A DNA stretch of 64,000 bases from Candidatus Altimarinota bacterium (GCA_043771825.1 JAYVGV010000037.1:14130-78129), one strand, 5' to 3'. Counted from the first letter of the stretch, positions 12,061 to 47,493 are shown. Translations and numbers: made by a program. The notes: generated by a model not told the origin, from the sequence alone.

Positions 12061-12086
12061 AGAGGGGTTTCAAGATGAATTGAATT

Positions 12087-17761: not shown

Positions 17762-17780
17762 AGCAAGATGAAGTGGATTA

Positions 17781-18308: not shown

Positions 18309-18466
18309 ATGAGGATGAGAATTAGGGTATAGGTATTGGGGATCAGAGGATATATTCCTCTTTTCTGAGTATAGTCTTCTTTTTCTATCTGTCGAGGAGA
18401 AAAACAAGAGAGAAAGAAAAAGAAATTGACAAGATTTATAAAAACAGTATTAAGCTACTATTCTTG

Positions 18467-19438: not shown

Positions 19439-19440
19439 AA

Positions 19441-20019: not shown

Positions 20020-20025
20020 AGTATA

Positions 20026-21891: not shown

Positions 21892-21981
21892 ATCTGGATG
21901 CTGATAACGTATGATGTCCGTCGTTATGAGAGATGCCACGGAGTATAGTGTAGAGCGAGAAATAAAAGAATTCCTATTTTC

Positions 21982-22419
21982 CTATATTGAATCCAGCATA
22001 TTGATCATCGTTCCAGCTTCCTCTTTTGAAGTATCGCTTTTTTCCTTTTCTTGTACTTTATCACGAGCTTTTTGTGATTGGAGAGACTGCCACTGGATGA
22101 GATGTTTTTCATTGAGAGTTTTGATCTCTTCTTGATATTTCATATTGAGCTCTTCAAGTTGGCGACGCTCAGTCATAAGTATATTGAAGAGACGATCGAT
22201 CTGCTCATCCGTCATAGAGGGAAGTATATCGAACCAATATTGCTTCTCATTATTATCTATGGATTCACTTTGGAGTACGAGACTGATAAGTTCAGGATAT
22301 TTCACCTGTATTTCATCTAAGATGGTGAACGTGAAGTCATTTTGAGTTATCTGAGTCATAAGAAAAGAGTACGTAATAAGGATGATATTAAGATAATCTA
22401 AATTGTATAGATCTTTCAT
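21982..22419 (-). CDS. hypothetical coiled-coil protein
   Basis: Track ORF 21982..22434 ends in TAG. First ATG at 22419 (MKDLY...); ATG 22359 (MTQITQNDF) is an alternative. C-terminal half is charged and coiled-coil (ERRQLEELNMKYQEEIKTLNEKH). Confidence 0.5.
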   Translation of the reverse strand: MKDLYNLDYLNIILITYSFLMTQITQNDFTFTILDEIQVKYPELISLVLQSESIDNNEKQYWFDILPSMTDEQIDRLFNILMTERRQLEELNMKYQEEIKTLNEKHLIQWQSLQSQKARDKVQEKEKSDTSKEEAGTMINMLDSI

Positions 22420-22518
22420 TTTTATGCAAATCAAAGATCAAGAGAATAGTCTTGCCAAAGAGTGAAAATTTATATTCTCACTATTTCTTTCTATATGCAA
22501 GGGCTTTTCTCTCTAAAA

Positions 22519-24712: not shown

Positions 24713-26062
24713 ATGCTGAAGGCTCGACAATTTCTGTTTCCTGCTTTTCTTCTCTTAGCACTCACTGGGATTATCTATGTCCTCTCGGCTTCTGAAGAGA
24801 CCCTGCTCTCTAAGAATTATGGTAATCCCCATGTTGTAGGCATTTTCAATACATGAGGGAATGCTGGCATGATATCTTTTGATGATGTGCCATATGGATA
24901 CTCAGGAGCTCAAGTGATATGATATGGAAGTACTGTTGTGACATTGACGGGTATATTTTGGATGGAGACGACTGGGTGGGCAACTTTCTCTGAGAGTCAA
25001 GTCACGATGATACCGCCAGTCTCATGAGATAACATCCGTGATCCCTGGTATCTCTCTGGATATGCCTGGAGTCCGAATGCTGGCTGGATCGCACTCAATC
25101 ACGGAGAGTCGTATGCATCAGGTGTAGCTTTCATGCCTGACATCAGTCAGCTCGTATGATATGGCTATAGTGAGAATCTTGGTTGGATACCCTTCTGAGA
25201 ATATTCTGGTTCTGGTATTGCTGTAAATATGAGTGATTGATTCATCTGAAAGGTATCGATCGCAGGGAGTATAGGATGATCCAAAACTTTCAATGTCCTC
25301 TATGATGTAGGAGGATCTTTTAATACTGTCTCCATGACAGCATTCGTGAATCTGGTGCGTAAAAATATCACGATACTGCTACGAAATGCAGGATCAAAGA
25401 TCAATACAAATCTCAGTGGACTCTGAGCTCAGTCATTCAATAAATCAATGATATTTCGAACGGAAAATAACCCGACATCAACATTTGTAAAATATTCAGA
25501 TATTAAAAATGCCTTCAACTTCGATCTCTCACGGAGCCTGATAGTGATAGGGGCTGACATATATATCGATGTAGATGCTCCAAATGCTATCTGATCCTCT
25601 CGAGCGATCATCGCTCTGAAAAATGAAAAAGGTGAATGAGGAAATATCTATATTGATGGATCGGTGAAGATTATAGAGTCAGTACTTTTTTCGGAGAGAT
25701 CTATCATATCTTGAGCAGAGTTTATCACGGGTTCACTCTCTTCATACTATGTCTCGAAGAAATCCGTATTTCTCGATATTCCACGGAACCAACTCTATAT
25801 CAAGTGAGCTATCTGAGGATTCAATACTATAGGCTGAAGCTCGAAAGATGATGGTGCTGTCTGTCCATATCTCAGTGATAACTCGATCTTATGTAGCTAT
25901 GATAACGCTATCAAATATGATTGGAACTATTTCCGTATATACAACTGATCTCCCGCCCGACGAGCCTACCCAAATAGCTCGAAAGATGCATTCTCCGTCA
26001 TCATAGAGTACGACCCTCGTATCGTCCAAGATCCACCTCCAGGACTGGAGACTCTCAACTAA
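24713..26062 (+). CDS. 449-aa secreted GW-motif protein, partner of fibre protein 1
   Basis: ATG 24713 to TAA 26060-26062. I checked every line in this frame: about 17 TGAs, no TAA/TAG. Signal/TM FLFPAFLLLALTGIIYVL. Repeated GWATF / AGWIAL / LGWIPF motifs. Ends ...VIIEYDPRIVQDPPPGLETLN. Paralog of 40240..41589, with identical length. Confidence 0.75.
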
Positions 26063-26117
26063 TAGCCTTCTCATCGAAGTGACAGTCCCTCTTCGTATAC
26101 TCCTTATTTTTCCTACT

Positions 26118-29100
26118 ATGTCTTTCTTTCGTATACCATTCATCGTTGTTCTACTTTCATTGAGTAATGTAGCTATGACAGGAGCTGTAAGCTATCCATC
26201 TACAGGTCCTGCAGGAAGCTATTCAGGATGAAGCTTTGGGACATACCTCCAGAACTTGATCACCAATCCTTGTCCTCTATGACAAGTGATGACAAGTTTT
26301 AGTACATGAAGTTCTGACTATGGTAGACCCAATTGTGTATTTGCTTCACTTCCACCATGAGTATTTGGCAATACCGTATACTATAATGGTAGCTCATGGG
26401 TAGCGAGTAACGTCATATATAATGATGCTGTCAATGTCGGTATCTGACTCGGGGGATTAGTGCCACAAGCAAGACTAGAAGTAGGCTGAGGAGTGAAGAT
26501 CGCTGGTGATACCGCTCTCTGCAATACCGGGAAAGCCGGTACTATACGATATAATGGTACGAATGTCGATTATTGTAATGGTACAACTTGGTGATCTCTC
26601 GGATGATCAGGAGGATGGTGACTCACGGGAAATGGGGGAACAAATTCAGGAACCAACTTCCTCGGAACGACAGATAATATCGATCTCGTATTCAGACGCA
26701 ACAATATCGAAGGGATGCGTCTCTCTGGTGCGAGTGGCAATCTCGTGACGACTGTAGATGCCACGATCAATGGAGTGATAGTAGGACGAGGAGGAGGGAA
26801 TATTGATACCAACACCGCGAATGGATCGGGTGCTCTCTTCTCCAACACCACAGGAGATAGCAATACCGCGAATGGAGTCGCTGCTCTCTATTCCAACACC
26901 ACAGGAATCTACAACACCGCAAATGGAGCCTTTACTCTCCAAAACAACATCACGGGAAGCTTTAATACCGCGAATGGAGCCTCCGCTCTCATCAGCAACA
27001 TCACAGGTAGCGACAACACCGCAAATGGACATGGCGCATTAGGAAATAATACTACTGGAAACTCCAACACCGCGAATGGACTGAGCGCATTAGTACGTAA
27101 CACCACTGGAACCAACAACACCGCGAATGGAGTCTTTGCTCTCTTCTTCCACACCACGGGAACCGGCAACACCGCGAATGGATTTCGGGCTCTCTACAAC
27201 AACATCACGGGAAACTTTAATACTGCACTTGGGAGCTCTGCAGGATCCGCTATTACCACTGGTTCATCGAATATTGCCATAGGATACAATGCTCAGGTAG
27301 CGTCTCCTACCGGATCGAATCAGCTCTCTATCGGGAACTGGATCTATGGAAGTGGTGGGAATATCGGTATCGGTACCTCTACTCCATGAGCTCGGCTCGA
27401 AGTGGCAGGACAAGTGAAGATCACAGGTGGTTCTCCATGAATTGGAAAAGCCCTAATCTCAGATGCTACAGGTCTCGCAAGCTGGCAGACTCCAAGTGGT
27501 GGCAGTGGCTGTATACCGAGTGGAACGGGTGCAGATAATACTTGTCTTTGAACAGGGGCTTTACAACTCAATACAATTGGAACACTAAATACAGCGATAG
27601 GGAATCAAACATTGAGTAAAAATACTACTGGTTTTATAAATACATCAATTGGTGATAGAGCCTTACGAGATATGACAATAGGTGATTCAAATACTGCTAT
27701 CGGATGATGATCTATGAAACTTAATGTTTCTTGAACGAATAACACAGCAGTATGAGCAAATTCTTTAGTCAACCATACTTCAGGCAATAAAAATGCTGCA
27801 TTTGGTGAATATACTCTCAACGCTCTTACGAGTGGTAATGCAAATATTGCCATCGGTAGTGCAGCTTTCTATACTCTGACTTCAGGTTCAGATAATATAG
27901 CTCTTTGAGCAAATTCTACCTTAACTGTAGGTTCCAATAATATCGCTATAGGGAATAATCTTGCTTTAGCATCTTGATCAATAAACAAACTCAATATCGG
28001 TAATTGGATCTATGGAAGTGGGTGAAATATCGGTATTGGTACTTCTACTCCATCCGAAAAACTCGAAGTGGCTGGAGGAGATGCTATCATCTATGGAGTG
28101 AGAGTAGGAAGAGGAAGTGGGGCTATTGCTACGAATACAGCAGTAGGATCTGGTGCTCTCTTCTCCAACACCACAGGATTCTATAACACCGCGAATGGAG
28201 GGAGTGCTCTCGGCTCCAACACCACAGGATTCTATAACACCGCGAATGGAGGCATTGCTCTCTACTCCAACACCACTGGGGGCTGGAATACCGCGAATGG
28301 ACTCAATGCTCTCTACTCCAACACCACGGGATGGTATAACACCGCGAATGGAGCCTCTGCTCTCCAGAACAATACCACGGGAGAATTCAACACCGCACTC
28401 GGCTCTCAGGCAGGATCAGGTATCACTACTGGATCATCGAATATTGCCATAGGATACGGTTCTCAGGTAGCATCTGCTACTGGATCGAATCAGCTCTCTA
28501 TCGGGAACTGGATCTATGGAAGTGGTGGGAATATCGGTATCGGTACTGCTACTCCATGAGCTCGGCTCGAAGTAGCAGGACAAGTGAAGATTACTTGAGG
28601 TGCACCCTGAGTGAATAAAGTCCTCATCTCAGATGCTACAGGTCTCGCGAGTTGGCAGACGGTGCCAGCATCAACGAGCTCATGGAATATCCTCGGAAAT
28701 AGTGGTACCGTCGCAGGTACCAACTTCCTCGGAACCACGGATAATATCGATCTCGTATTTAAGACGAATAATATAGAACAAGCAAGATTGTATGCTTCTA
28801 ATACCGGTGGCATATCTCTCTGAAAGTCAAATAATAGCGTGACTACTGATAGATCATATATAATCGGTGATACCAATACTCTCAGTGGTTCATTTGGCTT
28901 TATATTTTGAAGATCGAATACTCTGGTAGGCGTAGGTGCAGATATGATACTCTGATACAATAATCAGCTTACTACATCATATGGTCTAGTGAATGTCATC
29001 GGATCAAATAATGTCAAAACGGGATCATGGGGAACTGTCATATGAAGATGAAATACTGTCACGGGTGGTGATAGTACGATAGTGATGTGAGAATCAAACT

Positions 29101-32100
29101 CTATAACAGGACATAATGCTATCGTCATGGGAAACGGGAATAATGCGCCGTATAATAATGACACGATAATCTATGGAAATGCGAACTCTCTCGACACAAA
29201 TATACATTATAATGTACTGAATGGTATATCGAATAAGGCAACTACCAATGGTTGAATGGGATGACGTATAGCATATGGTATAGCCAATAGCTCCCAACAA
29301 GGCTGAGCTATAACTATAGGATCATATAATACAGGATCAGCATCCAATGCTATAGCTATAGGATCACGTATCGATAATAACATCGCAAACTCAGTACAAA
29401 TAGGTCCAAATGATGCTTCGAAAATCACTATCCTTTCTTGATGACAGATGGGTATCGGTACTTCTACTCCATCAGCTCTACTCACGGTCTCAGGTTCGGC
29501 ACTCATCACGAGTGACCTCACAGTCCAAGGGAAGGTGATCTCTGATACCTTCGTGAATCGTACCGTGAATAATGTCACGATCTCAGGATCCCTCCTGCCT
29601 GATCTCGCAGCTCCTCTCGCTTACCGTGATATCGGAAATAATACGACGCAGAGCTGGAACAATCTCTATCTCTCTGGTCAGGTGACTATCAAGGGTGGCG
29701 CTCCCTGAGTAAACAAGTTTCTCACCTCAGATGCTACTGGTCTCGCGAGTTGGCAGACAGTGCCAGCTTCTCTGAACTCATGGAATATCCTCGGAAATAG
29801 TGGTACCGTCGCAGGTACCAACTTCCTCGGAACGACAGATAATATCGATCTCGTATTCAGACGCAACAATATAGAGGGGATGCGTCTCTCTGGATCGAGT
29901 GGCAATCTCGTGACGACTGTAGATGCCACGATCAATGGTATAACCGTAGGAAGAGGAGGTGGCGCGATAGCAACCAATACTGCTGTCGGGTCTGGTGCAC
30001 TTCAGGCTAACACCACAGGAAGCAACAACACCGCGAATGGAGCTAATGCTCTCTCCTCCAACACCGATGGATCCAACAACACCGCGAATGGAGCTAGTGT
30101 CCTCGCCTTCAACACCACGGGATACTCCAACACCGCGAATGGACATTCTGCTCTCTACTCCAACACCACGGGATACTATAACACGGCGAATGGCGTCTCT
30201 GCTCTCTACTCCAACACCACTGGGGGCTGGAATACCGCGAATGGATCCCTTGCTCTCCAGTCCAACACCACAGGAAGCAACAACACCGCGAATGGAATAC
30301 AGGCTCTCCTCTCCAACACCACGGGATACTGGAATACCGCGAATGGAGAGGGTGCTCTCCTCTCCAACACCACAGGAAACAGCAATACCGCGAATGGAAG
30401 GTATGCCCTTGCTAACACCACAGGAAATAGCAACATCGCACTTGGGATTGCTGCAGGATCGACTATCACCACTGGATCATCGAATATCGCTATCGGTAAT
30501 GCTGCACAAGTAGCATCTGCTACCGGATCCAATCAGCTCTCTATCGGGAACTGGATCTACGGAACGAGTGGGAATATCGGTATCGGTACCGCGACTCCAT
30601 GAGCTCGGCTCGAAGTCGCAGGACAAGTGAAGATAACTGGTGGTACTCCTGGTCTCGGTAAGATCCTCATCTCAGATGCTACAGGTCTCGCAACATGGCA
30701 GACCCCAATGGCTTCTCTATCAGGATCGTTCTGGTCTCTCCTTGGAAATAGTGGTACGGTCGCAGGTACCAACTTCCTCGGAACGACAGATAATATCGAT
30801 CTCGTATTCAGACGCAACAATATAGAGGGTATACGTCTCTCTGGTGCGAGTGGGAACCTCGTCACTATAGTAGATGCTACGATCAATGGTGTAAGAGTGG
30901 GAAGAGGAGGAGGGAATATAGGGAGTAATACCGCGAATGGATCGGGTGCTCTCTCCTCCAACACCACGGGAACCTCCAATACTGCGAATGGAATACAGGC
31001 TCTCTGGCTCAACACCACAGGCTTCAATAACACCGCGAATGGAGCCGTTGCTCTCGCCTACAACACCACGGGAACCTCCAATACCGCGAATGGAGTGCAG
31101 GCTCTCTGGCTCAATACAACAGGCCTCAACAATACCGCGAATGGAGCGCAGGCTCTCCGGTCCAACACCACGGGAAACTGGAATACCGCGAATGGACATT
31201 CTGCTCTCTACTCCAACACCACGGGATACTATAACACGGCGAATGGCGTCTCTGCTCTCTACTCCAACACTACAGGAATCTATAACACCGCGAATGGATC
31301 CCTTGCTCTCTACTCCAACACCACAGGCTTCAATAACACCGCGAATGGAGCGCAGGCTCTCTATTTCAATACGAGTGGATCCAATAATACGGCGAATGGT
31401 CAGAGTACTCTTGCCTTCAACACCACGGGAGTCGGCAACACCGCGAATGGAATACAGGCTCTCTATTCCAATACGTCTGGAAGTGCTAATGCCGCGAATG
31501 GTGCTAGCGCTCTCTTCTCCAACACCACTGGAAGTGGTAATACAGCGAATGGAGCCAATGCCCTCTACTTCAACACCACTGGAAACTTCAATACCGCGAA
31601 TGGAGTGCAGGCTCTCCAGTCCAACACCACTGGATCGGATAATGTGGCGAATGGAGTCTCTGCTCTCCGCTTCAATACCACGGGAACCGGTAATACAGCG
31701 AATGGATCCCTTGCTCTCTACTCCAACACCACTGGGGGCTGGAATACCGCGAATGGACTCAATGCTCTCTACTCCAACACCACGGGATGGTATAACACCG
31801 CGAATGGTGGAGGTGCTCTCAATTCCAACACCACGGGAAACTTCAACACCGCACTTGGACTCTTTGCAGGCAACCTTATCACCACAGGATCATCGAATAT
31901 TGCTATAGGCTACGGTTCTCAGGTAGCGTCTCCTACCGGATCGAATCAGCTCTCTATCGGGAACTGGATCTATGGAAGTGGTGGGGATATCGGTATGGGT
32001 ACCTCTACTCCATGAGCTCGGCTCGAAGTCGCAGGACAAGTGAAAATCACAGGTGGTTCTCCATGAATTGGAAAAGCCCTAATCTCAGATGCTACAGGTC

Positions 32101-33296
32101 TCGCAAGCTGGGGAACTCCTATCAACTGTACAGCATCTGGAAGTGGGCTCAATAATATTTGTTATGGTACCTTCTCCCTACAAAATAATACTACAGGACA
32201 AAATAATGTCGCCTATGGAAACGAGGCACTCAGAAATAATAACGGAGGAAGTGCGAATGTGTCCCTCTGATATGGGTCTATGTACTACAATACGAGTGGA
32301 TCGAGCAATGTGGGAATCGGTGTATATGCTCTCAATAGTAATACTACTGGTGTTGCGAATGTCGGTATCGGTCCAGATAGTCTTGCATATGCAAGTACAG
32401 TGAGCTATAATATCGCTTTGGGAAGTTCTTCACAGAAAGAAAATAGATCTTGAAACAATAACGTAGCAGTAGGTGCAGAAGCTCTCAGGCTTAACTTCAC
32501 TGGATCCTTTAATTCAGCATTTGGAAATGCAGCAGCTACTCAGATGCAGTCCACTGCAAGTAGTTTTGTAGAATGAAATAATGCGTTTGGAGCCTATGCT
32601 CTCCAAGGAGGAAGTAGTACAGGTAGTCTCAATACTGGATATGCTAATTCGGCATTTGGTAACTATGCCCTTCTCGGAACCACAGGAACTCCGACTACAG
32701 GATTCCAGAATTCAGGATTTGGTAATACTTCTCTTCAGACAGTGACAAGTGGATCCAATAATGTCTGAGTAGGATATGGAGCAGGGAATGGACTCACTTC
32801 AGGATCCAACAATATCTTTATCGGTGCCAATATCGTTCCCGTCTCAAATACTGCTTCAGATCAGCTCTCTATTGGGAACTGGATTTATGGAAGTGGGTGA
32901 AATATAGGTATCGGAGTATCTAGTCCAACACAAAAACTCCACGTGAATGGAAATGTCCTTGCTGATGCATTCCTCTACGTATCTGATGCTCGCATGAAGC
33001 AAGACGTGACAGGTATAGAGAATGCTGATGATATACTCACGAAACTTCAGGGAGTGCGATTTGTCTGGAAAGCAGATGGTCGAGCGGATATAGGATTTAT
33101 CGCTCAGGAAGTAGAGAAGGTACTTCCTGACCTTGTCCATACTGATAGTACTGGCATGAAGAGTGTCGAATATGGGAATATCATCCCAGTTCTTGTCGAA
33201 GGATATAAGTCAGAAAAATCTCGTGCTGATCTACTCGAATCTCGAATGGACACACTTGAGGCCCGACTCCAATCCCTTGAATCTGCTAATAAATAA
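26118..33296 (+). CDS. giant modular tail-fibre-like surface protein 1 (2392 aa) with C-terminal Peptidase_S74 chaperone domain
   Basis: Track ORFs 26715, 28068, 28611, 29448, 29760, 30627 and 32943 are all in the frame of ATG 26118. I read the gaps between them codon by codon and found only TGA. TAA at 33294-33296. Signal peptide MSFFRIPFIVVLLSLSNVAMTG. About seven modules, each ending NQLSIGNWIYGSGGNIGIGTSTPGARLEVAGQVKITGG.PG.GK.LISDATGLASWQT. Four arrays of 17-aa SNTTG..NTANG..AL repeats. C-terminus VSDARMKQDV...RFVWK...IGFIAQEVEKVLPDLV...VEYGNIIPVLVEG plus a coiled coil. Confidence 0.85.
26800..27235 (+). repeat. 51-nt (17-codon) tandem coding repeats, array 1 of fibre gene 1
   Basis: TCCAACACCACAGGA recurs at 26841 and 26892 (51-nt period). 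About 8 units of SNTTGxxNTANGxxAL[YF]. Confidence 0.8.
27294..27485 (+). repeat. 192-nt module-junction repeat, copy A
   Basis: Matches 31920..32111 with 4 mismatches by my alignment. Shorter, related copies at about 28492-28590 and 30525-30645. Confidence 0.85.
28149..28402 (+). repeat. 51-nt tandem coding repeats, array 2
   Basis: About 5 units: ALFSNTTGFYNTANGGSALGSNTTGFYNTANGGIALYSNTTGGWNTANG... Confidence 0.8.
29990..30440 (+). repeat. 51-nt tandem coding repeats, array 3
   Basis: About 9 units: ALQANTTGSNNTANGANALSSNTDGSNNTANG... Confidence 0.8.
30930..31865 (+). repeat. 51-nt tandem coding repeats, array 4 (longest)
   Basis: About 18 units. Almost free of stop codons in several frames on both strands, which explains track ORFs 30937..31908(+) and 30720..31199(-). 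Confidence 0.8.
31920..32111 (+). repeat. 192-nt module-junction repeat, copy D
   Basis: Direct repeat of 27294..27485. The offset is 4626 nt (3 x 1542), so the copies are in the same reading frame. Confidence 0.85.
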
Positions 33297-33304
33297 CTAA
33301 AATT

Positions 33305-33796
33305 ATGAAAAATAGATATCATCCCATCCACTATGTACTTGTTGTATCCATCTTAGGAGTACTTGCTCATTATATTATCGCTTTTGCAATAGTTGATGAG
33401 TGAAGAACACTTCAGAGTTTTACTTTACCAGGAGGAGCAATATCAACATCATTTCAGTCACTTCAAAATGGTTGGAGGAATAATGGTATAGAGACTTTTG
33501 ATATCACTACTCCTGAAGCGTGCTATACTATAAATGTAAGTGATACACGAAACTTCTTCATACCTACGAGGACACTCCAGGAATGGACAAGGTTTAAAAT
33601 CGCAGGATTAAATACGATAACGCCTTATACTTGCTGATCAACATGTGATATCAATAGTGGTCCTGTGATGTCAGAGGTAGTATGTCCACCTAAAGAGATG
33701 TGTACATTTGGTATTAAGTGTATACAATATGCAAATGAATGTCAAATGATAGCAGCATGATGAACTGTCGGCCCAAACTGTCAGCTAGCTATTTAA
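33305..33796 (+). CDS. small Cys-rich membrane-anchored protein (163 aa)
   Basis: ATG 33305, 9 nt after the fibre-1 stop, to TAA 33794-33796, with four in-frame TGAs. TM helix YVLVVSILGVLAHYIIAFAIV. C-terminus has 8 Cys (TPYTCGSTCDINSGPVMSEVVCPPKEMCTFGIKCIQYANECQ). No family recognised. Confidence 0.55.
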
Positions 33797-33846
33797 GAAA
33801 ATTGATTCATTTTAAATTAAAATTCTATAATTTATAGGATTTTAAT

Positions 33847-33945
33847 TTATAGGAGTTCTATATTTCTATACTTCTCTTCGAGCTTCGTAAGTTCACTCTC
33901 AGCTAAGTATATCTTCTCTATCTCGATTCGTATGACTTTCTTTTC
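33847..33945 (-). pseudogene. degenerate duplicate of the valS 3' end
   Basis: The reverse strand encodes EKKVIRIEIEKIYLAESELTKLEEKYRNIELL-TAA. The true ValRS tail (34284-34385) reads [34 protein letters not shown]. About 70% nucleotide identity by eye. No upstream coding continuity. Confidence 0.45.
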
Positions 33946-33947
33946 CC

Positions 33948-34217
33948 TTATTTCTGCCAAGGTTCTTTTCCTTGGATTTCTGATATATGCTCGAAGGCTT
34001 GCATGATCAGTCTATGTGTCATATTGTGCTGGAGCTCTTCTTCATGTCGGAACTCTGCGAGGTCTCGGCGTATACTATCGAGAGAGACTTCGAAACGAGA
34101 GTTTGTTCACTCCTGCTTAGCATTAAAAGCTTCTTGCTTAGCATTCGTAGCCTCCTGCTTCTGAATAAATCCAGTAAGGAGCGAGAGTATATTATCGAGC
34201 TTTTGTTCGGTAGTCAT
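33948..34217 (-). CDS. small hypothetical coiled-coil protein (89 aa)
   Basis: ATG 34217 to TAA 33948-33950, one in-frame TGA. MTTEQKLDNILSLLTGFIQKQEATNAKQEAFNAKQEG... Lies between valS and the duplicated valS tail. Confidence 0.4.
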
Positions 34218-34283
34218 AAGTGATATTATTATGAATATGGATTCTAGTATAGCGTATTTCTTTAGGGGGGCAAATTTTTCTCC

Positions 34284-40239: not shown

Positions 40240-41589
40240 ATGAATCGTAAACTTATATTTGCGATCATGCTTATCGTTCTTATGGGTGCAGGTATTTTTA
40301 ATACCTTCTGAGTAGGGAAATTTTTTCGTCTCCGAGGAGATTTTATACCGAGTCTCTCCTGGTCTTGAGGATATCCTGGGAGAGTATTATTTGATATTGC
40401 GACTGGAGCAACAAATAGTGGATTTGCTCCAGGGATTGATCTAGATGGTTATCTTTCGGGTTCATTCTGGCTTGGGAATGTCGGGTGGACTACCTTTAAT
40501 CATAGTACTACAGGTGTCGCTCAAGCACGAGTCCTCTGTGCGAATATCGTATTTAATGACCCAAATATTACCTGTCCTGTCGATGGATTTGCTTGGAGTC
40601 GAAATAGCGGATGGATCGCCCTATCAGGATCATTCATCGATGGAGGATCCTGAGTATACTATAATCCTGCAGCATGACGTATACAATGATTCGGGCATAG
40701 TACAGCACTCTGATGGATACCTTTCTATGCTGATACGACCACGCCAGTGACTACGACGACTCAAACGTGAGTCCTCCTTAATGGTATGGGGCTTAACTTC
40801 ATCTGAAAGATCGCTATAATAGGGAATATAGCAGGTACACGAATATTTAATGTCACGAATCAGCAGGTATGATATGTATTCACGACGATCAACCATGCAG
40901 ATATGCTCAATATTATCCGAAAAAATATCGCACTCATATCGCGAAATGCGAATCCTACAGAACTCGCAGATCCTTTTAGTACGAAGTTTAATTTTCTTCT
41001 TCAAAAAGGCTCTGACTATGATACGAGTATCCCATGATGGACTTGGCCGACTTCCAAAAAATCGATCATCATCATCGGATGAGATGTCATACTCGATCAA
41101 TCTCAAATCTGACTTATTAATACAAATAAAGCCCTCATAGTTCTCAAAGATGAGAGCGGAAGCTGAGGAAATATCATCATACGAGAAGGAGTGGGTCGTA
41201 TATATGCATTTATCTATGCTGAAGGTTCTATATATTCCTGAGATAAGACGGCTACATGACTCATAGTACCTTATGTGGCGAAGTGAGTATGGAATATACC
41301 AGGAAATCAGCTCTATATCAAGGGGGCTATCATCTCAAAAAATACTATCTGAGGATCACTCCAGTCCCCACCTACTTGTCCTGTAGTGATAGCGAACTGT
41401 GATGCACTCAATTCGCAAATCTATGATGTGAACTATTTTCGTACCTATGACTCTACAGATCTCACTCAGAGGAATATCCCCAGTATGTACTATAATGATC
41501 TACGCTTTTCTGCTGCATCTACCGTCATTGAATACAATCAATCTCTCGCGACGGATCCACCTCCAGGGATATCATCAATATTCCAATAA
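40240..41589 (+). CDS. 449-aa secreted GW-motif protein, partner of fibre protein 2
   Basis: ATG 40240 to TAA 41587-41589, read line by line (about 25 TGAs, no TAA/TAG). Shares these with 24713..26062: GWIAL, LGWIPF, FIGK[VI].I.G.I.G..[TI]FNV, IRKNI, GGNI.I, PGNQLYIKGAI, NTIGGS, and the C-terminus VIEYNQSLATDPPPGISSIFQ. Confidence 0.75.
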
Positions 41590-41610
41590 ACTTCTCTAAC
41601 CTTTCTTCCC

Positions 41611-44600
41611 ATGTCTCTTCGTTTTACTGTAGCTCTCTCCCTTCTCTTCTTCTCGTACGCTACGATATCAGTACATGCTCTTGCATATCCTACGACTACA
41701 CCATCTGGAGAAACCACAGGAGGTACATATCGTACGTACTTTGATAATATTTTCCAAGATCTTTGAAGTGACTGTAATCTCAGTGGAAGAGTGATCGGAG
41801 GATTTGATTCTGTATGAGTACCGATATGTGTCACACCAGTTTCTTCAGGATTATTCCTCTCGGGCCAGACGAGTGGTGATACGATTAGATTCGATGGGAC
41901 GCTCTGGGTAAGAAATAATCTTCTCTATAACAATGGTACAGCTATAGGCATAGGTACGACGAGCCCTGCGTATATACTCGATGTTGGTGGAACAGCGAAC
42001 TTCATAGGATTGCGTATGCCGACGGGTGCTGGATCAGGAAGGGTGCTCACTTCGAATGCTGCTGGAACTATGTACTGGGCAAGCTCCATATCTGGTGCCA
42101 CAGCATCGGGTATCACAGGGGGGACACAGAGCTATATACCAAAATTTGGAATCTGATGAAATGGACTTATCCTCTCTCAATTTTTCGATAATGGCACAAA
42201 TATCGGTATTGGTACAACTATACCAACAGCGAAGGTAGATATATCGACTGTAGGAACGGCACCATTCCAGATACGAAGTGGAAATGGAAGTGCATCTTAT
42301 GTGAATAATCAAATACTCTTCTGATGGAATGGGAGTGATGGATATAGACATGCTATCAAGACTCGACACAATGGAGGAGGACTTTCTGATAATGCTATAG
42401 ATTTTTATGTATGGGATCAATCAACAGATGTTTCTACTACTATAGGAACTCGAAGGGTGATGACTCTCGAAGGTGCGAATGGTGGGTCAGTCGGTATAGG
42501 TACCCCTACAATTTCTTCTTGAGCAAGACTCGAAGTGGCAGGGCAGATAAAAATCACAGGAGGCGATTTCTGATCATGAAAAGTACTCACGAGTGATGCC
42601 AGTGGTCTTGCCGCGTGGCAACTGCCAGGAGCAGCATCGAGTGTCAGTGCAACAGGTATTACTGGCGGCTCAGGCTACTATATTCCATTTTTTTGATCCT
42701 GATGAAATGGGCTTTACTCGTCATTCATGTATTTTACATGATGAAAACTAGGGATCAATACTACAAGTCCGACATATATGTTCGATGTACAATGAGATAA
42801 TAGCATTATCCGTGCTTGAAGTGGTTTTTGTCTGGGTATGACAGCATCAGGATGTATCACGAATTGGTCAGATCTGAATAATATGGTGAGAAGTAGTGGT
42901 ACTCCGAATTATATAGCAAAATTTGATACGGGATGACTTATCGGTAATTCGCAATTATATGAAACTGGAGGTAATCTTTATATATGAGATATTCCAGCAA
43001 TTCTTTGAGGAGCAGCTACGATATGATATGTTACTATAGAAGCAAATGGAAGTACAAATTCATCGAATCCATTTCTTACACTTTCTGAAATGTGATGACA
43101 AGAATGTCGTATGTGGATTACTTGAGCGAATAAACTCGGATCAAACTGTAGCTGGAATGCCGGAGGTGGTACATATCAGCCAAATCAAGTCATAAAAGCT
43201 GATACAGCAGGAAGCTCATTGACAGGTACGAATATGTATAATGTAGGACAGTTTGTCGGAATTTGAACTAATAATCCTACTACAACATTGACAATAGACT
43301 CTGGAGTTGATGATGATTCTGGGCTGAGGTTTTCCCGTGTTGATACATCCACACCACTTATCTCAAATGGTGTACTCGCTCTTTGAGTGAATGCTTCAGG
43401 GAAAGTAATACCGATCAGTCCTATTAGTAATATCGCAGTATACAATGGTGTCGATAGAGTAACTGTAATGAGTCCAAATCCTGATCTTAGTACATTTAAC
43501 ATTACCTATGATTTTAATCGGTTTTTTGCTATTCCAGGAAAACAATCATTCGTCGTAAGTAGTGGAGATTCTTCCTCGTATAATGGTCCATATTTTAAAG
43601 AAAACGGTACGAGTGCACTTTGTTCTGTCAATGGTACTTATGGTACAAGTCCATATGATTGTGCTGATCCTGATCCAGCTACAGGTATTTCTGCAAGTCC
43701 ATTTAATTCTTTTACTATGACAGCAAAGGGTGATACATTTGGATATCAGATCGCGCTTGGGGCACGCTGAGATGCTCCGCTTTTTGCTCGAAGTGGTCGA
43801 TATAATGGCTCACAAACAGGCTGACTCTATACCAATGACTCACCTTACCAGACTCCAGCACCATGGCAGAAAGTCCTCTCGCTTCCAGCGCATCATCCTG
43901 AGTATCTCTATATCAATACAGGACTGAGTTCTCAGCTCCAATCTCAAACATGATGATGAAATGTCGGTATCGGTACGACTACACCACAGAGTCGATTCGA
44001 AGTATGGACTGGTTCTACTACGACAGCACTCATACATTTTCGTGGAGTGAATAATGTCGGTATGGGTCTTGGAGCTTCGCGTCCTCAACAGAGTGGAAAT
44101 GCGAATAGTGCATTCGGAAATGAATCATTATTCACTCTGACATCAGGATATTCCAATACTGCTATAGGATATCGTTCTCTTCGTCTTACAGCTGCTGGAT
44201 TCAATAACTCTGCAATTGGACAAGAGGCACTCTATAATAATAATGGTTGAAGCTGGAATACAGCAGTCTGATACCAAAATCTTTATTCTGTAACATCAGG
44301 AACGAGAAATATAGGACTTGGCGCACAAGCTCTCTATAACCTCAGTACATGAAATGATAATATCGCTATCGGATATCAGGCAGCTCGTGTTCTAGCTGGA
44401 AGTGCAATATCCAATAATATTGCCATATGATATCAATCTCTCTACTCTGCTACAACATCAAATCTCCTCGCTATCGGATATCAAGCCCTTTATCATAATG
44501 CATGAGGAATAGCAAATCAATGAGTAGGATATCAAGCATTGTTTTCAAATACGTCAGGAAACTACAATACGGCTGAATGATATGAAGCACTGAGTGCAAA

Positions 44601-47493
44601 TACTACAGGAGCAAACAATACGGCTATCGGATATCAGGCACTTGATACAAACTCTACTGCTAGTAATAATACTGCTATCGGATATCAGGCACTTCTCCTC
44701 AATACAGCATCATCAAATACCGCTGTATGACAACTTGCACTCAGGTCCAATATAAGCTGATGAGCGAATACAGCACTAGGATTAGAGGCTTTATATGCGA
44801 ATACTACTGGCACGAGTAATGTCGCTATAGGACTTCAGACGATGAGCTCAAACTCTACTGGCTGGGAGAATGTCGCTGTATGAAAGTGAGCTATGAGTAG
44901 TATATGATCTGCACCACAAAACAATACAGTAATAGGTACAAATGCTGGAAGATGAGGTGGGACAAGTAGCTCGAATAGCTCGAATAATGTAATTATCGGT
45001 CATACAGCTTGATATGCAATAAATGGTGGAAATAATAATGTATTTCTCGGTACCAATGCATGAAGTGGTATCACAACAGGCTCAAATAATATCGTGATAG
45101 GAAATAATGCTTCACTCGCTTCAAATACTCTCTCGAATCAGCTTTCTATCGGAAACTGGATCTATGGAAGTGGATGAAATATCGGTATCGCGACGAATGC
45201 TCCCACGACGAATCTAGATATCAATGGAACTATACGAATCAGAGGAGGAGCACCTGGTGCTGGAAAGATACTCATGTCAGATGCTGTATGACTTGCCAGC
45301 TGGCAGACGCCGACAGGTGCGGCTGCTATACCATGGGCAATCGCGGGAAATGCTGGTACTGATCCAAATAGTAACTTTGTCGGAACTACTGATAATTTTG
45401 CTCTGACGTTCCGTACAAATAATATCGAAAATATGCGACTTCTCACGAATGGCAATCTCGGTATCGGTACGAGTACTCCTGCATCTCGACTCAGTATATC
45501 ATGAGGAGGATTCTCTGTAGGATACCCTACCAATGCAGCACCGACTGATGGAGCTATAATATCTGGAAATATGGGTATCGGGATTATTTCTCCTTCAGAA
45601 AAGCTCACTGTCAATGGTACTATAGAGAATCCTGCTGATAATAGCGCTATCGTATCCGGAAATGATCGGGCACTAGGATTTATCAAAAAAAGTGGACTTA
45701 TAGCTCAAGTATCAACGAACAATGTGAATCCAATAATTTTCTCAAAACTGAGTACTGCAACTATTACTTCAGCAAATGTAGCAGGATGAACTCTTACAGA
45801 ACTCATGCGTATACAAAATAATGGTGATGTCGGTATCGGTACAGCTGCTCCATGAGCACGACTTGATGTGGCAGGACAAGTAAGAATAACTGGTGGATCT
45901 CCTGGACTTGGGAAGATCCTCGTTTCTGATGCTACGGGTCTTGCGAGTTGGGAGACTGCTGCGACTGGATCATTTGCTGGATGGTGAGTCCTCGGAAATG
46001 CAGGAACTACTGCTACGACGAACTTCCTCGGAACCACAGATAATGTCGATCTCGTAATCCGTACGAACGCTACTGAAAAAGTGCGAATCCAAGCAGGATG
46101 AAACGTCGGTATCGGTACCAATAATCCTTGAGAGAAACTTGATGTGCTCGGTAATATCCGTGCTGGAACTGCTACTCCAAACACCATGATGGGAACACAT
46201 CCATCGTATGGAAATACCTATTCAGCTTGGTGGAAGTCTGGACTTGACTATTCTCTTCTGACGGATGCTACTCATACGTATCTCAATGCTCCACAAGCAA
46301 CATGAAATATCCATTTCCGTACAGCAAATACAGATAAGATGTTCCTGCGTGGAAGTGATGGGAATGTCGGTATCGGTAATACAGCTCCATGAGCAAGACT
46401 CGAAGTCACATGACAAGTGAAGATCACTGGTGGTGTTCCAGGGGCTGGGAAAGTCCTCACTTCCGATGCTACGGGTCTCGCGACTTGGGTACTTCCGACA
46501 CTGAGCTTCACAGGTGGTACGACGAACTATCTCACAAGATGGACATCAGCGAGTACTCTCGGTATAGGAGTGACATTTGATAATGGTACAAATGTCTGAA
46601 TTAATACTACTTCACCTGCGTCTAGACTCGATGTCAATGGTAATCTCGCAGTACGATGAGATGCAGGAGGGTCTATCTATACATGGAATGGGTGAGACAC
46701 AAGTTGGAGATGGGGAACCTCCAACGTTCCATGATATGCTCGATTTATCGCAACAGGGTACAATCAATTTGCAATTTTTGGTGCTGCAACAGGAAACGGA
46801 TTCTCAGTATGAGATGCGAGTACAGGGCTTTCCGCATTTGAAGTGACGAGTTCTTCAAATGCATATAAATCATACTTTAGATGAAATGTCGGTATCTGAG
46901 TTGATCCGACGCAGTCTCTCGATGTGACTGGGCAGATACGTATACGAGGAGGCTCTCCATGAGCTGGGAAGTATCTCGCTTCTGATGCGAGTGGAGTAGG
47001 GACATGGACGACGCCAGCAGGAAGCCAGACGGGTACGTATATCTATCGTATGGCGACACCACAAAGCTCTACCAATACGACTCTTGCATGAGTGACACAG
47101 CTTACCAGTACGCCACTCCCAGTATGACCATATCAATTCGAAGTGCTAGGAAGATTCCAGTCAGCTGCAGCGAATACTGGTCTTGGTCTTACTCTTGCTC
47201 AGACAAGTGGTGCAAGTACAAATTTCATGGGAACTATGAGTGCACAGCTGACAAATTCTACGATGTATAGCGAATCATTTATGGTCCAATGAACTGCAGT
47301 GACGACTACAGGTGTTCCTCTAGCAAATACAGATTACATAGTGATGATGAGAGGATCATTTGATATCACGGCTACTGGTACAGTAGCGGTACGGATGGCT
47401 ACAGAAAATAATGGTACTCAGGTCATCCTCGGTGTGTGAACTGCACTCATCATCAAGTCACTTGATCCAAATATAGCAGGAGGAGGTATATAA
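41611..47493 (+). CDS. giant modular tail-fibre-like surface protein 2 (1960 aa), no S74 domain
   Basis: ATG 41611, 21 nt after the partner gene. I read every line to TAA 47491-47493 and found no TAA/TAG but many TGAs, including TGATGATGA at 43951-43959. The N-terminus is paralogous to fibre 1 (AYPTTTPSGETTGGTYRTYFDNIF vs SYPSTGPAGSYSGGSFGTYLQNLI). Recurrent N[VI]GIGT..P...L[DE]V.G...I and GG.PG.GK.L.SDA.G.A.W junctions. Distinct beta-rich C-terminal domain. Confidence 0.85.
44090..45130 (+). repeat. degenerate coding repeats (NTAIGYQAL type) in fibre gene 2
   Basis: Series of SGYSNTAIGYRSL, FNNSAIGQEAL, NDNIAIGYQAA, SNNIAIGYQSL, ANNTAIGYQAL... units, many with TGA-encoded Gly. Related to, but more diverged than, the NTANG arrays of fibre 1. 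Confidence 0.7.

What the first reader, a model, noticed from the sequence alone, without database searches (positions are those of the whole stretch)
27294..32111. Near-identical 192-nt in-frame direct repeats 4626 nt apart, plus shorter copies: built-in recombination sites for module gain and loss
27294-27485 and 31920-32111 differ at only 4 positions by my alignment, and the offset is a multiple of three. Copies of about 100 nt of the same junction lie at about 28492-28590 and 30525-30645. A second roughly 120-nt family (ACCAACTTCCTCGGAACGACAGATAATATCGATCTCGTATTCAGACGCAACAAT...) recurs at about 26651, 29817 and 30767.

Homologous recombination between any pair would delete or duplicate whole fibre modules without breaking the frame. 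That would give length or antigenic variation. The same repeats are a hazard for short-read assembly, so the true module number could differ from what is shown here.
Basis: seen in the sequence. Interest (0 to 1): 0.7.

Follow-up and report, generated by a model that had tools for sequence, protein, structure and literature searches.

The report
Recombining repeats in a bacterial fibre gene
The near-identical in-frame repeats are real: they are module boundaries inside one 2,392-residue surface-fibre gene of a Gracilibacteria bacterium that reads TGA as glycine, they show signs of recent DNA exchange between modules, and one natural five-repeat length variant exists, but this is a familiar kind of repeat behaviour, not a new system.

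Summary
Observation confirmed. 27294-27485 and 31920-32111 are 188/192 identical, offset 4626 = 3 x 1542. Full copies also lie at 28464 (88.5%) and 30507 (87%). The second family is at 26651, 29816 and 30767 (90-96% over 120 nt), with a fourth partial copy at 28683.

All of it lies in one gene (26118-33296, +). The gene is open only if TGA is a sense codon (Gly, code 25), and its relatives are Candidatus Gracilibacteria MAGs. The protein has a signal-like N-terminus, arrays of 17-aa repeats, conserved junctions and a C-terminal Peptidase_S74 chaperone domain. It resembles the Bdellovibrio MAT fibres.

The DNA identity far exceeds protein constraint: a synonymous-codon null gives 143+/-5 of 192 against 188 observed, and the longest exact repeat is 97 nt against at most 33. 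Different tracts pair different modules, which points to gene conversion.

Independent assemblies of the same species reproduce the module order at 98-100% identity. One carries a 255-nt (5 x 51) in-frame deletion between 33-nt perfect repeats. Orthologues swap modules at the junction motif. No c1 x c4 recombinant was seen. "Built-in" design and antigenic variation remain untested.

Verdict: new member of a known kind, moderate interest.

The parts
26118..33296 (+). g19: one 2,392-codon gene (stop TAA) with 42 in-frame TGA (= Gly). It encodes a giant modular fibre protein and contains every repeat in the finding.
   Evidence: Open frame under TGA-sense translation. The start at Met 26118 is inferred from a hydrophobic signal-like segment that aligns with the orthologue N-termini.
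26118..26657 (+). Signal-like peptide (aa 1-23) plus N-terminal domain (aa 24-180).
   Evidence: 80% aa identity to the L003 orthologue, 63% to L001, and 33% to the in-window paralogue g27.
26651..26770 (+). N-junction copy of module A (GTNFLGTTDNIDLVFRRNNIEGMRLSG...).
   Evidence: 115/120 identical to 29816 and 108/120 to 30767.
26811..27284 (+). Array A: 10 units of 51 nt (17 aa, NTANGxxALxSNTTGxx).
27294..27485 (+). Junction copy c1 (end of module A): SIGNWIYG, the capping-loop motif GNIGIGTSTPGARLEV, then SDATGLASW.
   Evidence: 188/192 identical to c4. Motif map.
27486..28070 (+). Cap-type module B (GCIPSGTG...). It is internal here.
   Evidence: 72% aa identity to the terminal module of the L003 orthologue, which lies directly before that protein's S74 domain.
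28134..28454 (+). Array C: 7 units of 51 nt.
   Evidence: It contains one arm of the 97-nt exact repeat 28255-28351 = 31711-31807.
28464..28655 (+). Junction copy c2 (end of module C).
   Evidence: 88.5% to c1. A 65-nt exact tract is shared with c1: 27312-27376 = 28482-28546.
28656..29753 (+). Module D: N-junction copy at 28683-28777, then a different, AT-rich beta-helix-like region ending in a capping-loop motif and an SDATGLASW motif.
   Evidence: Weak Pfam LbR_Ice_bind hit. GC 37-41%.
29816..29935 (+). N-junction copy of module E.
29976..30497 (+). Array E: 11 units of 51 nt. Polymorphic in nature.
   Evidence: polymorphism.
30042..30296 (+). 255-nt (5 x 51) segment absent from the same-species contig L009. 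It is bounded by the 33-nt perfect direct repeat 30009-30041 = 30264-30296.
   Evidence: L009 (ENA ERZ27315200) is otherwise identical apart from 2 SNPs. The long allele is 100% identical in L018 (ERZ27315170) and L022 (ERZ28573521).
30507..30698 (+). Junction copy c3 (end of module E).
   Evidence: 87.2% to c1. It has GGT where the other copies have TGA at junction codon 49.
30767..30886 (+). N-junction copy of module F.
   Evidence: 71-nt exact tract 29808 = 30759.
30927..31910 (+). Array F: 20 units of 51 nt.
   Evidence: 86-nt exact tract 30132 = 31185 and 97-nt tract 31711-31807. A 267-residue AF2 single-sequence model (30630-31430) that includes the first ~10 units predicts a beta-solenoid there, pLDDT 70-90.
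31920..32111 (+). Junction copy c4 (end of module F).
   Evidence: Its positional orthologue in L001 is only 82.6% identical. The c4 of a second strain (L011) is 189/192 to window c4 and 187/192 to window c1.
32112..32945 (+). Cap-type module G (INCTASG...), the terminal module before S74.
   Evidence: 83% aa identity to the L001 terminal module and 40% to L003. It is the most strain-variable part: 13 synonymous and 10 non-synonymous codon differences against L011.
32946..33293 (+). Peptidase_S74 intramolecular chaperone / autoprotease domain; SDARMK motif at 32982-32999.
   Evidence: Pfam PF13884, E = 2.3e-14. PDB sequence hits to 6f45 and MyRF 7dc3.
24713..26062 (+). g18: conserved 449-aa upstream partner gene with no known domain.
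   Evidence: Syntenic in L001/L002 (83% aa) and L003 (76%). No Pfam or NCBIfam hit.
40240..47493 (+). Paralogous cassette: g26 (449 aa) plus g27 (1,960-aa fibre without S74). It carries the same junction motifs.
   Evidence: The junction matches 46350-46481 at 79.5% and 45133-45190 at 91%.

Best explanation
The repeats are the paralogous boundaries of structural modules in a single giant secreted fibre gene of a Candidatus Gracilibacteria bacterium that decodes TGA as glycine.

Each array-type module runs: N-junction (FLGTTDN...VGRGGG), then an array of 17-aa beta-solenoid repeats, then a C-junction (SIGNWIYG, a capping loop GNIGIGTxxPxxKLEV, then SDATGLASW). The protein ends in a cap module and a Peptidase_S74 chaperone domain. 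That domain presumably drives trimer folding and then cuts itself off (inferred).

The near-identity of particular copies at the DNA level, synonymous sites included, is best explained by recent intragenic homologous recombination. Short gene-conversion tracts (about 65-200 nt) and unequal exchange between modules homogenise patches of sequence. Different patches pair different modules.

The same substrate allows in-frame gain or loss of repeat units or whole modules. One 5-unit change in array E is seen between natural populations. Over longer times, orthologues have swapped, inserted or lost whole modules with breakpoints at the capping-loop motif.

Shown: the anatomy, the genetic code, the excess of DNA identity, the mosaic pattern, the 255-nt polymorphism and the orthologue mosaicism. 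Inferred: that RecA-type recombination is the mechanism, that the protein is a trimeric host-attachment or prey-attachment fibre, and that length or module variation has any functional or adaptive value.
For: Gene and code:
- Table 11 gives 8.7k aa of ORFs against 41k aa with TGA as sense.
- Opposite a TGA codon, g18 orthologues have Gly 88 times, Ser 16 times, and Trp is not among the eight most frequent residues listed. TGA and GGT alternate at junction codons 45 and 49.
- The closest relatives are Gracilibacteria MAGs.

Protein family:
- Peptidase_S74, E = 2.3e-14.
- The capping-loop motif aligns to the Bdellovibrio MAT structures 8ond, 8on4 and 8oml, and to MyRF.
- MAT features are taken from PMC10769870.
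- The array is predicted to be a beta-solenoid.

Gene conversion:
- c1-c4 has 4/192 mismatches against 50/195 immediately upstream (Fisher p = 2e-12).
- Synonymous-difference codons are 2/62 for c1-c4, against 11-13 of 54-58 for the other junction pairs and 13/45 upstream (p = 3e-4).
- Upstream of the junction c4 is closest to c2 (165/195). Inside the junction it is closest to c1 (188/192). That is incongruent.
- Further exact tracts of 97, 86, 71 and 65 nt link other module pairs.
- The positional orthologues of c4 and c1 in other genomes are only 78-83% identical.
- L003 repeats reach at most 78%.

Variation:
- L009 has the 255-nt in-frame deletion between 33-nt repeats.
- The long allele is present in three assemblies.

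Module shuffling:
- The N-terminus and cap B are L003-like; cap G and S74 are L001-like.
- Homology blocks start and end at capping-loop motifs, and L001 has an extra 97-aa module between two such motifs.

Reality of the repeats:
- Independent contigs L023, L018, L022, L011 and L010 reproduce the sequence at 98-100% identity.
Against: - No read-level data, so conversion or crossover frequency is unknown.
- No c1 x c4 recombinant was seen. A second strain (L011, 98% identity) is colinear through F-c4-G with no indel.
- The 255-nt deletion rests on a single MEGAHIT contig.
- The array modules are 50-55% GC against 40.6% for the window, and their 46 in-register repeat units examined contain no TGA codon. 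This could mean a recent foreign origin followed by amplification rather than continuing conversion.
- No independent contig spans c1 from end to end (27366-27431 is not bridged). The A-c1-B order therefore rests partly on elimination.
- Trimer formation, S74 cleavage, surface location and function are all untested.
Confidence: 0.68

Rival explanations
1. The junction repeats are selected, 'built-in' recombination sites that frequently delete or duplicate whole fibre modules and so give length or antigenic variation within populations.
For: - In-frame spacing of all copies.
- Exact tracts of 65-68 nt in the junctions.
- Orthologue module swaps with breakpoints at the junction motif.
- Contig L019 joins the end of module C through the c2/c1 shared 65-mer to cap B. 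That is the join expected from a B-C duplication.
- The 5-repeat indel shows that the gene does vary.
Against: - No c1 x c4 product was found.
- L019 also contains a second 102-nt back-jump at another short repeat. Its joins lie at repeats comparable with SPAdes k-mer sizes, so it may be a graph cycle.
- Two strains are colinear through F-c4-G.
- No recombinase or reverse-transcriptase domain in the neighbouring genes screened (g11-g15, g17, g18, g20, g23-g28).
- Selection for recombinogenicity cannot be told apart from a by-product of conversion.
Confidence: 0.2
2. Recent one-off origin. A GC-rich array module, possibly acquired from a standard-code donor or a different lineage, was amplified inside the gene a short time ago. 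The near-identical tracts are leftovers of that amplification, not signs of continuing exchange.
For: - Array modules A, C, E and F are 50-55% GC, against 35-44% for the caps and module D and 40.6% for the window.
- The arrays contain no TGA codon although the gene has 42.
- Orthologue genes are 37-49% GC throughout, and the L003 arrays use TGA-Gly.
Against: - Most of the array sequence is only 60-78% identical between units and modules, so the amplification is not recent overall.
- Identity is confined to sharp-edged tracts that pair different modules incongruently. Simple duplication does not predict this.
- The junctions themselves do contain TGA codons.
Confidence: 0.15
3. Assembly or polishing artefact. 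Repeat copies were homogenised or mis-joined by the assembler, so the near-identity or the module order is not real.
For: - Short-read assemblies of this species break at these repeats.
- L019 shows that graph mis-traversal can occur.
- c1 is not bridged end to end by any independent contig.
Against: - MEGAHIT, metaSPAdes-style and Logan contigs from at least eight samples match the window at 98-100% across c2, c3, c4 and both ends of c1.
- The k-1 overlaps at contig ends show that the repeat has two continuations in those samples too.
- The four c1/c4 differences are retained.
- The frame stays open for 2,392 codons.
Confidence: 0.05
4. Constraint at the nucleotide level (mRNA structure, translational pausing or codon optimisation) keeps the junction copies identical.
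For: A Gracilibacteria repeat gene with unusual nucleotide-level behaviour has been described (10.1101/595074).
Against: - The same codons differ synonymously in c2, c3 and the orthologues (11-13 of 54-58 codons).
- Constraint would not produce identity tracts that pair different modules in different places.
Confidence: 0.02

Closest known systems
MAT (mosaic adhesive trimer) fibre superfamily of Bdellovibrio bacteriovorus (Caulton et al. 2024, PMC10769870)
   Same: - Signal peptide followed by a shared N-terminal domain.
- Long beta-helical stalk punctuated by the capping-loop motif (VGIGTxxPxxxL). That motif aligns g19 to the PDB entries 8ond, 8on4 and 8oml.
- An S74-terminated member (g19) and a non-S74 member (g27) in the same genome.
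- Mosaic tips ('tip swapping').
- Type IV pilus genes next to the locus, a link those authors raise as a possibility.
   Different: - A different phylum (CPR / Gracilibacteria) and genetic code 25.
- Much longer (2,392 aa), with arrays of a 17-aa repeat.
- Homology of the N-terminal domain to the Bdellovibrio one was not tested.
- Trimerisation, surface location and a prey or host role are untested.
- Intragenic near-identical DNA repeats and a conserved 449-aa partner gene are not among the MAT features I saw in the passages read.
Peptidase_S74 / intramolecular-chaperone tail fibres and tailspikes (phage K1F endosialidase, T5 L-shaped fibre), and the bacterial 'tail fiber domain-containing proteins'
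   Same: - C-terminal PF13884 domain with the S-D-x-x-x-K motif.
- Thousands of bacterial homologues carry the same 17-aa arrays and an S74 domain.
   Different: - A chromosomal gene in a cellular genome among housekeeping genes, not a phage.
- No phage structural genes nearby.
Intragenic repeat variation in surface proteins (variable tandem repeats, PMC3899988) and intragenic homogenisation of spidroin repeats (PMC3933166)
   Same: - In-frame repeats.
- Patches of concerted evolution.
- Copy-number change by recombination between repeats.
- Assembly difficulty.
   Different: - Here the repeats are hierarchical: 51-nt units inside modules of roughly 0.6-1.4 kb.
- Most units are only 60-78% identical.
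- Only one natural copy-number change has been documented.
Trimeric autotransporter adhesins (the JGI label on several homologues)
   Same: Fibrous repetitive adhesin-like architecture. The solenoid-type repeats are loosely reminiscent of YadA-like heads (Foldseek 3s6l, E = 4, not significant).
   Different: No YadA anchor and no Hep_Hag repeats by Pfam. An S74 domain sits where the membrane anchor would be. Not a member.
Hypervariable PTD-repeat surface gene of a Gracilibacteria genome (Sieber et al., 10.1101/595074)
   Same: A Gracilibacteria extracellular repeat protein whose repeats fragmented the assembly and vary within the population.
   Different: That locus has 9-nt units encoding PTD, with synonymous hypervariation. 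Here there are 51-nt units and 192-nt junctions, and the pattern is homogenisation rather than synonymous diversification.

Membership tests
Peptidase_S74-terminated fibre ('tail fiber domain-containing protein') | C-terminal match to Pfam PF13884 above the gathering score | tested here: met
   53.9 bits against a cut-off of 22, E = 2.3e-14, residues 2277-2392 region.
Peptidase_S74-terminated fibre ('tail fiber domain-containing protein') | Catalytic Ser...Lys motif S-D-x-x-x-K at the cleavage site | tested here: met
   SDARMK at aa 2289-2294. It aligns to SDRRIK of 6f45 and to the MyRF ICA domain.
Peptidase_S74-terminated fibre ('tail fiber domain-containing protein') | Autoproteolytic release of the chaperone and trimeric beta-helix upstream | not testable with these tools
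   Only a monomer AF2 model was made. The array is a beta-solenoid at pLDDT 70-90 and the junction is below 50.
MAT superfamily (Bdellovibrio) | Capping-loop motif V-G-(x)-G/N-small-x-x-P-x-x-x-L recurring along the fibre | tested here: met
   Eight copies in g19. phmmer aligns this motif to Bd2133 (8ond, E = 7e-4), 8on4 (0.024) and 8oml (0.15). The motif definition comes from PMC10769870.
MAT superfamily (Bdellovibrio) | Signal peptide followed by a conserved ~130-aa N-terminal domain shared by all members | tested here: inconclusive
   g19 and g27 share an N-terminal domain (33% identity over 159 aligned columns), and both start with a hydrophobic signal-like segment. No full-length Bdellovibrio MAT sequence was available for comparison, and no signal-peptide predictor was run.
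MAT superfamily (Bdellovibrio) | S74 and non-S74 subfamilies with interchangeable tips | tested here: met
   g19 has S74 and g27 has none. Terminal modules differ between orthologues.
MAT superfamily (Bdellovibrio) | Intertwined trimer on the cell surface that binds prey or host glycans | not testable with these tools
   Needs a multimer model or an experiment.
Trimeric autotransporter adhesin | C-terminal YadA-type beta-barrel anchor and Hep_Hag/HIM head repeats | tested here: not met
   No such Pfam hits at E <= 0.01, and the C-terminus is S74. The Foldseek YadA-like head match has E = 4.
Recombination-driven variable-repeat (size-variable) surface gene | In-frame repeats with long tracts of DNA identity beyond protein constraint | tested here: met
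   Spacings are multiples of 3. 188/192 against a null of 143+/-5, and a 97-nt exact tract against a null maximum of 33.
Recombination-driven variable-repeat (size-variable) surface gene | Copy-number differences between isolates or populations, with breakpoints in the repeats | tested here: met
   Array E has 11 or 6 units, a 255-nt deletion between 33-nt perfect repeats, seen in L009 against the window, L018 and L022. Caveat: one contig and no reads. Not seen for the c1-c4 pair.
Programmed cassette or diversity-generating systems (pilE/pilS-type silent cassettes, DGR, invertases) | Dedicated donor cassettes, reverse transcriptase or site-specific recombinase at the locus | tested here: not met
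   The neighbours screened (g11-g15, g17, g18, g20, g23-g28) are a pilin, a prepilin peptidase, an M23 peptidase, a sugar transferase, Lgt, an ABC-F protein and several proteins with no Pfam hit. g16, g21 and g22 were not scanned. The paralogue g27 shares only 77-91% over at most 132 nt. The rest of the genome is unseen.
Genetic code 25 lineage (Gracilibacteria / Absconditabacteria) | TGA in frame in nearly all genes, aligned with Gly in homologues | tested here: met
   All 38 genes stop at TAA or TAG (g1 is cut by the window end), and 35 contain in-frame TGA. Opposite TGA: Gly 88, Ser 16, and Trp is not among the eight most frequent residues. Relatives are titled Candidatus Gracilibacteria. 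No tRNA-Gly(UCA) lies in the window.

The most novel reading that the evidence does not exclude
Gracilibacteria carry MAT-like attachment fibres whose conserved junction sequences act as a shared recombination 'grammar'. RecA-type exchange within the gene, between the two fibre cassettes of the genome, and between strains would reshuffle arrays and tip modules and change fibre length. That would let an obligate episymbiont or predator track changes on its host's surface. The GC-rich, TGA-free state of the homogenised arrays would then be a footprint of GC-biased gene conversion in a recoded genome.
Probability: 0.2. Interest if true: 0.6.

Novelty: new member of a known kind. Interest (0 to 1): 0.4.

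Why it matters
Gracilibacteria are uncultivated, recoded, host-dependent bacteria, and how they attach to their hosts is unknown. This locus is a concrete candidate attachment fibre. It has S74 chaperone chemistry and MAT-type capping loops, sits next to type IV pilus genes, and is paired with a conserved 449-aa gene.

The gene shows real sequence exchange between its modules and at least one natural length variant. For genome work, it shows that reading with the wrong genetic code shatters the gene. It also shows that its 30-97 nt exact repeats break short-read assemblies at predictable points.

As a mechanism, repeat-mediated in-frame variation and concerted evolution of surface proteins are well known. 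The value is therefore as a well-documented example in a poorly known lineage, not as a new principle.

Tried and rejected
- An exact 41-nt junction pattern in metagenome contigs gave 0 hits.
- g18 against metagenome contigs gave only one distant 1.6-kb contig. The genome scan gave 5 loci, none from the same species.
- Whole-protein and cap-module homologue searches were swamped by the huge repeat family and returned no same-species protein. The N-terminal search succeeded only indirectly, through fragment P0125.
- Table-11 ORF look-ups were not on record for 26715-27389, 28068-28559, 27344-27571(-) and 29760-30602.
- Pfam and NCBIfam gave nothing for the arrays, g18, g20, g26 or g27. PF26696, listed for many homologues, is not in the Pfam copy available.
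- PDB sequence search with the whole protein hit only the S74 region.
- Foldseek on the array model gave no significant match (best E = 1.7).
- I first read L019 as a 96%-identity divergent strain. Closer inspection showed it is 100% window sequence with two anomalous joins at short exact repeats, so I treat it as ambiguous.
- A blastp dot-plot of the orthologues failed because of repeat-driven gapped alignments. I replaced it with per-module local alignments.
- Rejected: a phage origin (housekeeping context), trimeric autotransporter membership, and a DGR or invertase mechanism.

Full report
**1.

Windows 27294-27485 and 31920-32111 differ at four positions: 27360, 27371, 27404 and 27419. Two changes are non-synonymous and two are synonymous. 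The copies are 4626 nt (3 x 1542) apart. Identity collapses to about 25% right after 27485 and drops to about 74% upstream of 27291.

The two 'shorter' copies are really full in-register copies. They lie at 28464-28655 (88.5%) and 30507-30693 (87.2%), with 87-nt cores at 97% and 92%. I call the four copies c1 to c4. Their spacings (1170, 2043, 1413) are all multiples of three.

The second family is exact over 56 nt at 26652, 29817 and 30768. It is 90-96% identical over 120 nt. A fourth partial copy lies at 28683-28777.

**2. What the sequence is**

Under the standard bacterial code the region is a litter of short ORFs. If TGA is read as sense, coding capacity in the window rises from 8.7k to 41k residues. 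One 2,429-codon frame (26007-33296) then covers the whole finding.

All 38 genes I called stop at TAA or TAG, and 35 contain in-frame TGA. Opposite TGA codons, orthologues of the neighbouring gene g18 carry Gly 88 times and Ser 16 times; Trp is not among the eight most frequent residues listed. Within the junction copies, TGA and GGT alternate at the same codon.

The nearest relatives of g18 are MAGs titled Candidatus Gracilibacteria. The window is therefore a chromosome segment of a code-25 bacterium. It carries aminoacyl-tRNA synthetases, Lgt, an ABC-F protein, a pilin and a prepilin peptidase. It is not a phage.

**3. Anatomy of the gene**

The gene is g19, 26118-33296, 2,392 aa. The start codon is inferred. 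The parts are listed below.

| Part | Residues | Content |
|---|---|---|
| Signal-like peptide | 1-23 | hydrophobic N-terminus |
| N-terminal domain | 24-180 | shared with g27 at 33% identity |
| Module A | 181-456 | N-junction, 10 x 17-aa units, junction c1 |
| Cap module B | 457-651 | cap-type module, internal here |
| Module C | 652-846 | 7 units, junction c2 |
| Module D | 847-1212 | a different beta-helix-like region |
| Module E | 1213-1527 | 11 units, junction c3 |
| Module F | 1528-1998 | 20 units, junction c4 |
| Cap module G | 1999-2276 | terminal cap module |
| Peptidase_S74 domain | 2277-2392 | SDARMK motif; E = 2.3e-14 |

Each C-junction encodes SIGNWIYG, then GNIGIGTSTPGARLEV, then SDATGLASW.

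The GNIGIGTxxPxxKLEV element is the only part, apart from S74, that finds solved structures. It aligns to the 'capping loops' of the Bdellovibrio MAT fibres Bd2133 (8ond), 8on4 and 8oml, and to MyRF. Caulton et al. define the MAT fibres by a signal peptide, a shared N-terminal domain, an intertwined trimeric beta-helix with capping loops, and S74 or non-S74 ends with swappable tips (PMC10769870).

The window also holds a non-S74 paralogue, g27 (41611-47493). It has the same motifs and a related N-terminus. Both fibre genes are preceded by a paralogous 449-aa gene of unknown function, g18 and g26.

A single-sequence AF2 model gives a two-strand-per-unit beta-solenoid for the array (pLDDT 70-90). 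It gives no confident fold for the junction. Foldseek finds nothing significant.

Homologues with the same 17-aa arrays number in the thousands across phyla. They are variously labelled 'tail fiber domain-containing protein' or, wrongly, 'trimeric autotransporter adhesin'. No YadA anchor or Hep_Hag repeat is present.

**4. Why the copies are so alike**

Protein constraint cannot explain the identity. Resampling synonymous codons while keeping the protein gives c1-c4 identity of 143+/-5 (max 156) against 188 observed. It gives a longest exact repeat of at most 33 nt against 97 observed.

Among codons that encode the same residue, c1 and c4 differ at 2 of 62. The other junction pairs differ at 11-13 of 54-58. 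The 195 nt just upstream differ at 13 of 45 (Fisher p = 3e-4 and 7e-3).

The pattern is mosaic. Upstream of the junction c4 is closest to c2 (165/195, including a 97-nt exact tract). Inside the junction it is closest to c1 (188/192). Other exact tracts link E with F and c1 with c2.

The positional orthologue of c4 in L001 is only 82.6% identical, and that of c1 in L003 only 78%. Repeats in the L003 orthologue never exceed 78%.

Sharp-edged, incongruent tracts of identity in a 60-78% background are what short gene-conversion tracts between paralogous modules produce. I take this as the best explanation. The mechanism itself (RecA-type homologous exchange) is inferred.

**5. Evidence for gain and loss**

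a. *Between genomes.* The orthologues in L001 (2,516 aa) and L003 (about 2,450 aa) keep the flanking genes, the N-terminus and the same module grammar, but their interiors are not colinear.
   - g19 is a mosaic. Its N-terminus (80%) and cap B (72%) are L003-like. In L003 the cap-B-type module is the terminal module, directly before S74.
   - Cap G and S74 (83%) are L001-like and only about 41% identical to L003.
   - DNA homology blocks begin and end at capping-loop motifs (27348-28069; 31980-32918).
   - L001 carries an extra 97-aa module between two such motifs.

b. *Within the species.* Table-11 ORF fragments from the window retrieved contigs of the same organism from other assemblies.
   - L018 (ENA ERZ27315170) equals 27444-31320 and L022 (ERZ28573521) equals 28297-31239, both at 100%.
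   - L023 equals the region up to 27366 at 100% over the 400 nt checked.
   - L011 (NCBI GCA_043751175.1) equals 30709-33462 at 98.1% with no indel. L010 (Logan SRR23617302) equals 32082-36591 at 99.9%.
   - Together these confirm the module order. The exception is that c1 is not bridged between 27366 and 27431.
   - L009 (ERZ27315200) is identical to 28428-31873 except for two SNPs and a clean 255-nt (5 x 51) in-frame deletion. Its ends lie in a 33-nt perfect repeat, 30009-30041 = 30264-30296. Array E therefore has 11 or 6 units.
   - A 33-nt repeat is far below the k = 141 suggested by the contig's 'k141' name, so I consider the join probably real. It still rests on one contig.

c. *Ambiguous.* L019 (ERZ28573510) joins the end of module C through the 65-nt c1/c2 exact tract to cap B. 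That is the join expected from a B-C duplication. It also jumps back 102 nt at another short repeat, so it may be a cycle in the assembly graph.

d. No c1 x c4 recombinant was found.

**6. Assembly hazard**

Contig ends from other assemblies fall at the exact repeats. The terminal repeat lengths are 30 (Logan contigs; this would be k-1 if k = 31), 55 (BUSI22 scaffolds; this would equal k if k = 55), 42 and 97 nt. The tiling in section 5b argues that the structure shown in the window is nevertheless right.

**7. An unexplained extra**

The homogenised array modules are 50-55% GC. Cap B and module D are 35-41%, cap G and S74 are 42-44%, and the window as a whole is 40.6%. The orthologous genes are 37-49% GC throughout.

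The arrays contain no TGA codon at all, although they are Gly-rich and the gene has 42 TGA codons. The L003 arrays do use TGA.

GC-biased gene conversion, or a recent foreign origin of the array module, would each explain this. I could not discriminate between them.

**8. Comparison and verdict**

By function and architecture, the closest described system is the Bdellovibrio MAT fibre family. The capping-loop, S74 / non-S74 and mosaic-tip features are met. N-domain homology and trimerisation are untested.

As a genetic phenomenon this is intragenic repeat homogenisation and repeat-mediated size variation. That is well known from surface adhesins and from spidroins (PMC3899988, PMC3933166). A different repeat-bearing hypervariable surface gene has been described in a Gracilibacteria genome (10.1101/595074).

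The finding is therefore real and correctly located. Its interpretation is partly right, and it is a new member of a known kind. Interest is moderate, mainly for CPR biology and for assembly practice.

Noticed in passing
window 1-64000: The whole window is recoded. TGA is a sense codon (Gly, code 25) in 35 of the 38 genes called, and every complete gene stops at TAA or TAG. Standard-code ORF calling shatters every gene, and public protein sets hold these genes either as fragments or with Trp at TGA (for example P0001).
   Followed up: yes
window 40240-47493 (g26, g27) and 24713-33296 (g18, g19): There are two paralogous two-gene cassettes. Each has a 449-aa protein with no known domain, followed by a giant fibre gene. 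One fibre has S74 (g19) and one does not (g27). The g18-g19 pairing is syntenic in two other Gracilibacteria MAGs, so the 449-aa protein may be a dedicated partner for anchoring, export or assembly.
   Followed up: partly
window 26811-27284, 28134-28454, 29976-30497, 30927-31910: The four 17-aa repeat arrays are 50-55% GC in a 40.6% GC window and contain no TGA codon, although the gene has 42. Orthologous arrays in L003 are AT-rich and do use TGA for Gly. This could reflect GC-biased gene conversion or a recent foreign origin. It is unexplained.
   Followed up: partly
L019 (ENA ERZ28573510), matching window 28297-28546 then 27377-28276: A 1,193-nt contig of the same species joins the end of module C to cap B through the 65-nt c1/c2 exact repeat, then jumps back 102 nt (2 units) in array C. 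It is either a real tandem duplication of modules B-C or an assembly-graph cycle.
   Followed up: partly
window 32112-32945 against L011: Between two strains (98% identity), the terminal cap module G carries 23 codon differences, 10 of them non-synonymous. The adjacent S74 domain carries none in 116 codons, and array F only 19 in 403. The putative binding tip is the fastest-changing part.
   Followed up: partly
window 15723-24552 (g11-g17): A pilin-like protein (N_methyl motif), a prepilin peptidase (A24_N_bact) and an M23 peptidase lie directly upstream of the fibre cassette. The same order (prepilin peptidase, M23 peptidase, 449-aa gene, fibre) is present in L001.
   Followed up: partly
window 6952-12135 (-), g7: Another giant gene (1,727 aa, 30 in-frame TGA). 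It has a repeated Ig/PKD-like N-terminal half, a transmembrane segment, and a low-complexity tail with recurring 'IPDWLK' motifs. It was not analysed.
   Followed up: no
L003 18762-21347: In the related MAG JAYVIJ010000006.1, a second fibre gene with the same module grammar starts 20 nt after the orthologue's stop, so the fibre genes are in tandem. The window has only a 163-aa gene at that position.
   Followed up: no
L008 (ENA ERZ27315211, k141_745458): A different Gracilibacteria species has the g22-g27-like context (tRNA synthetase, Lgt, then a fibre gene). Its 29-kb contig ends 2.5 kb into the fibre gene, which is another example of these genes terminating short-read contigs.
   Followed up: partly
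window 49499-49573 (+): tRNA-Asn (GTT) is the only tRNA in the window. No tRNA-Gly(UCA), which would decode TGA, is present here.
   Followed up: no
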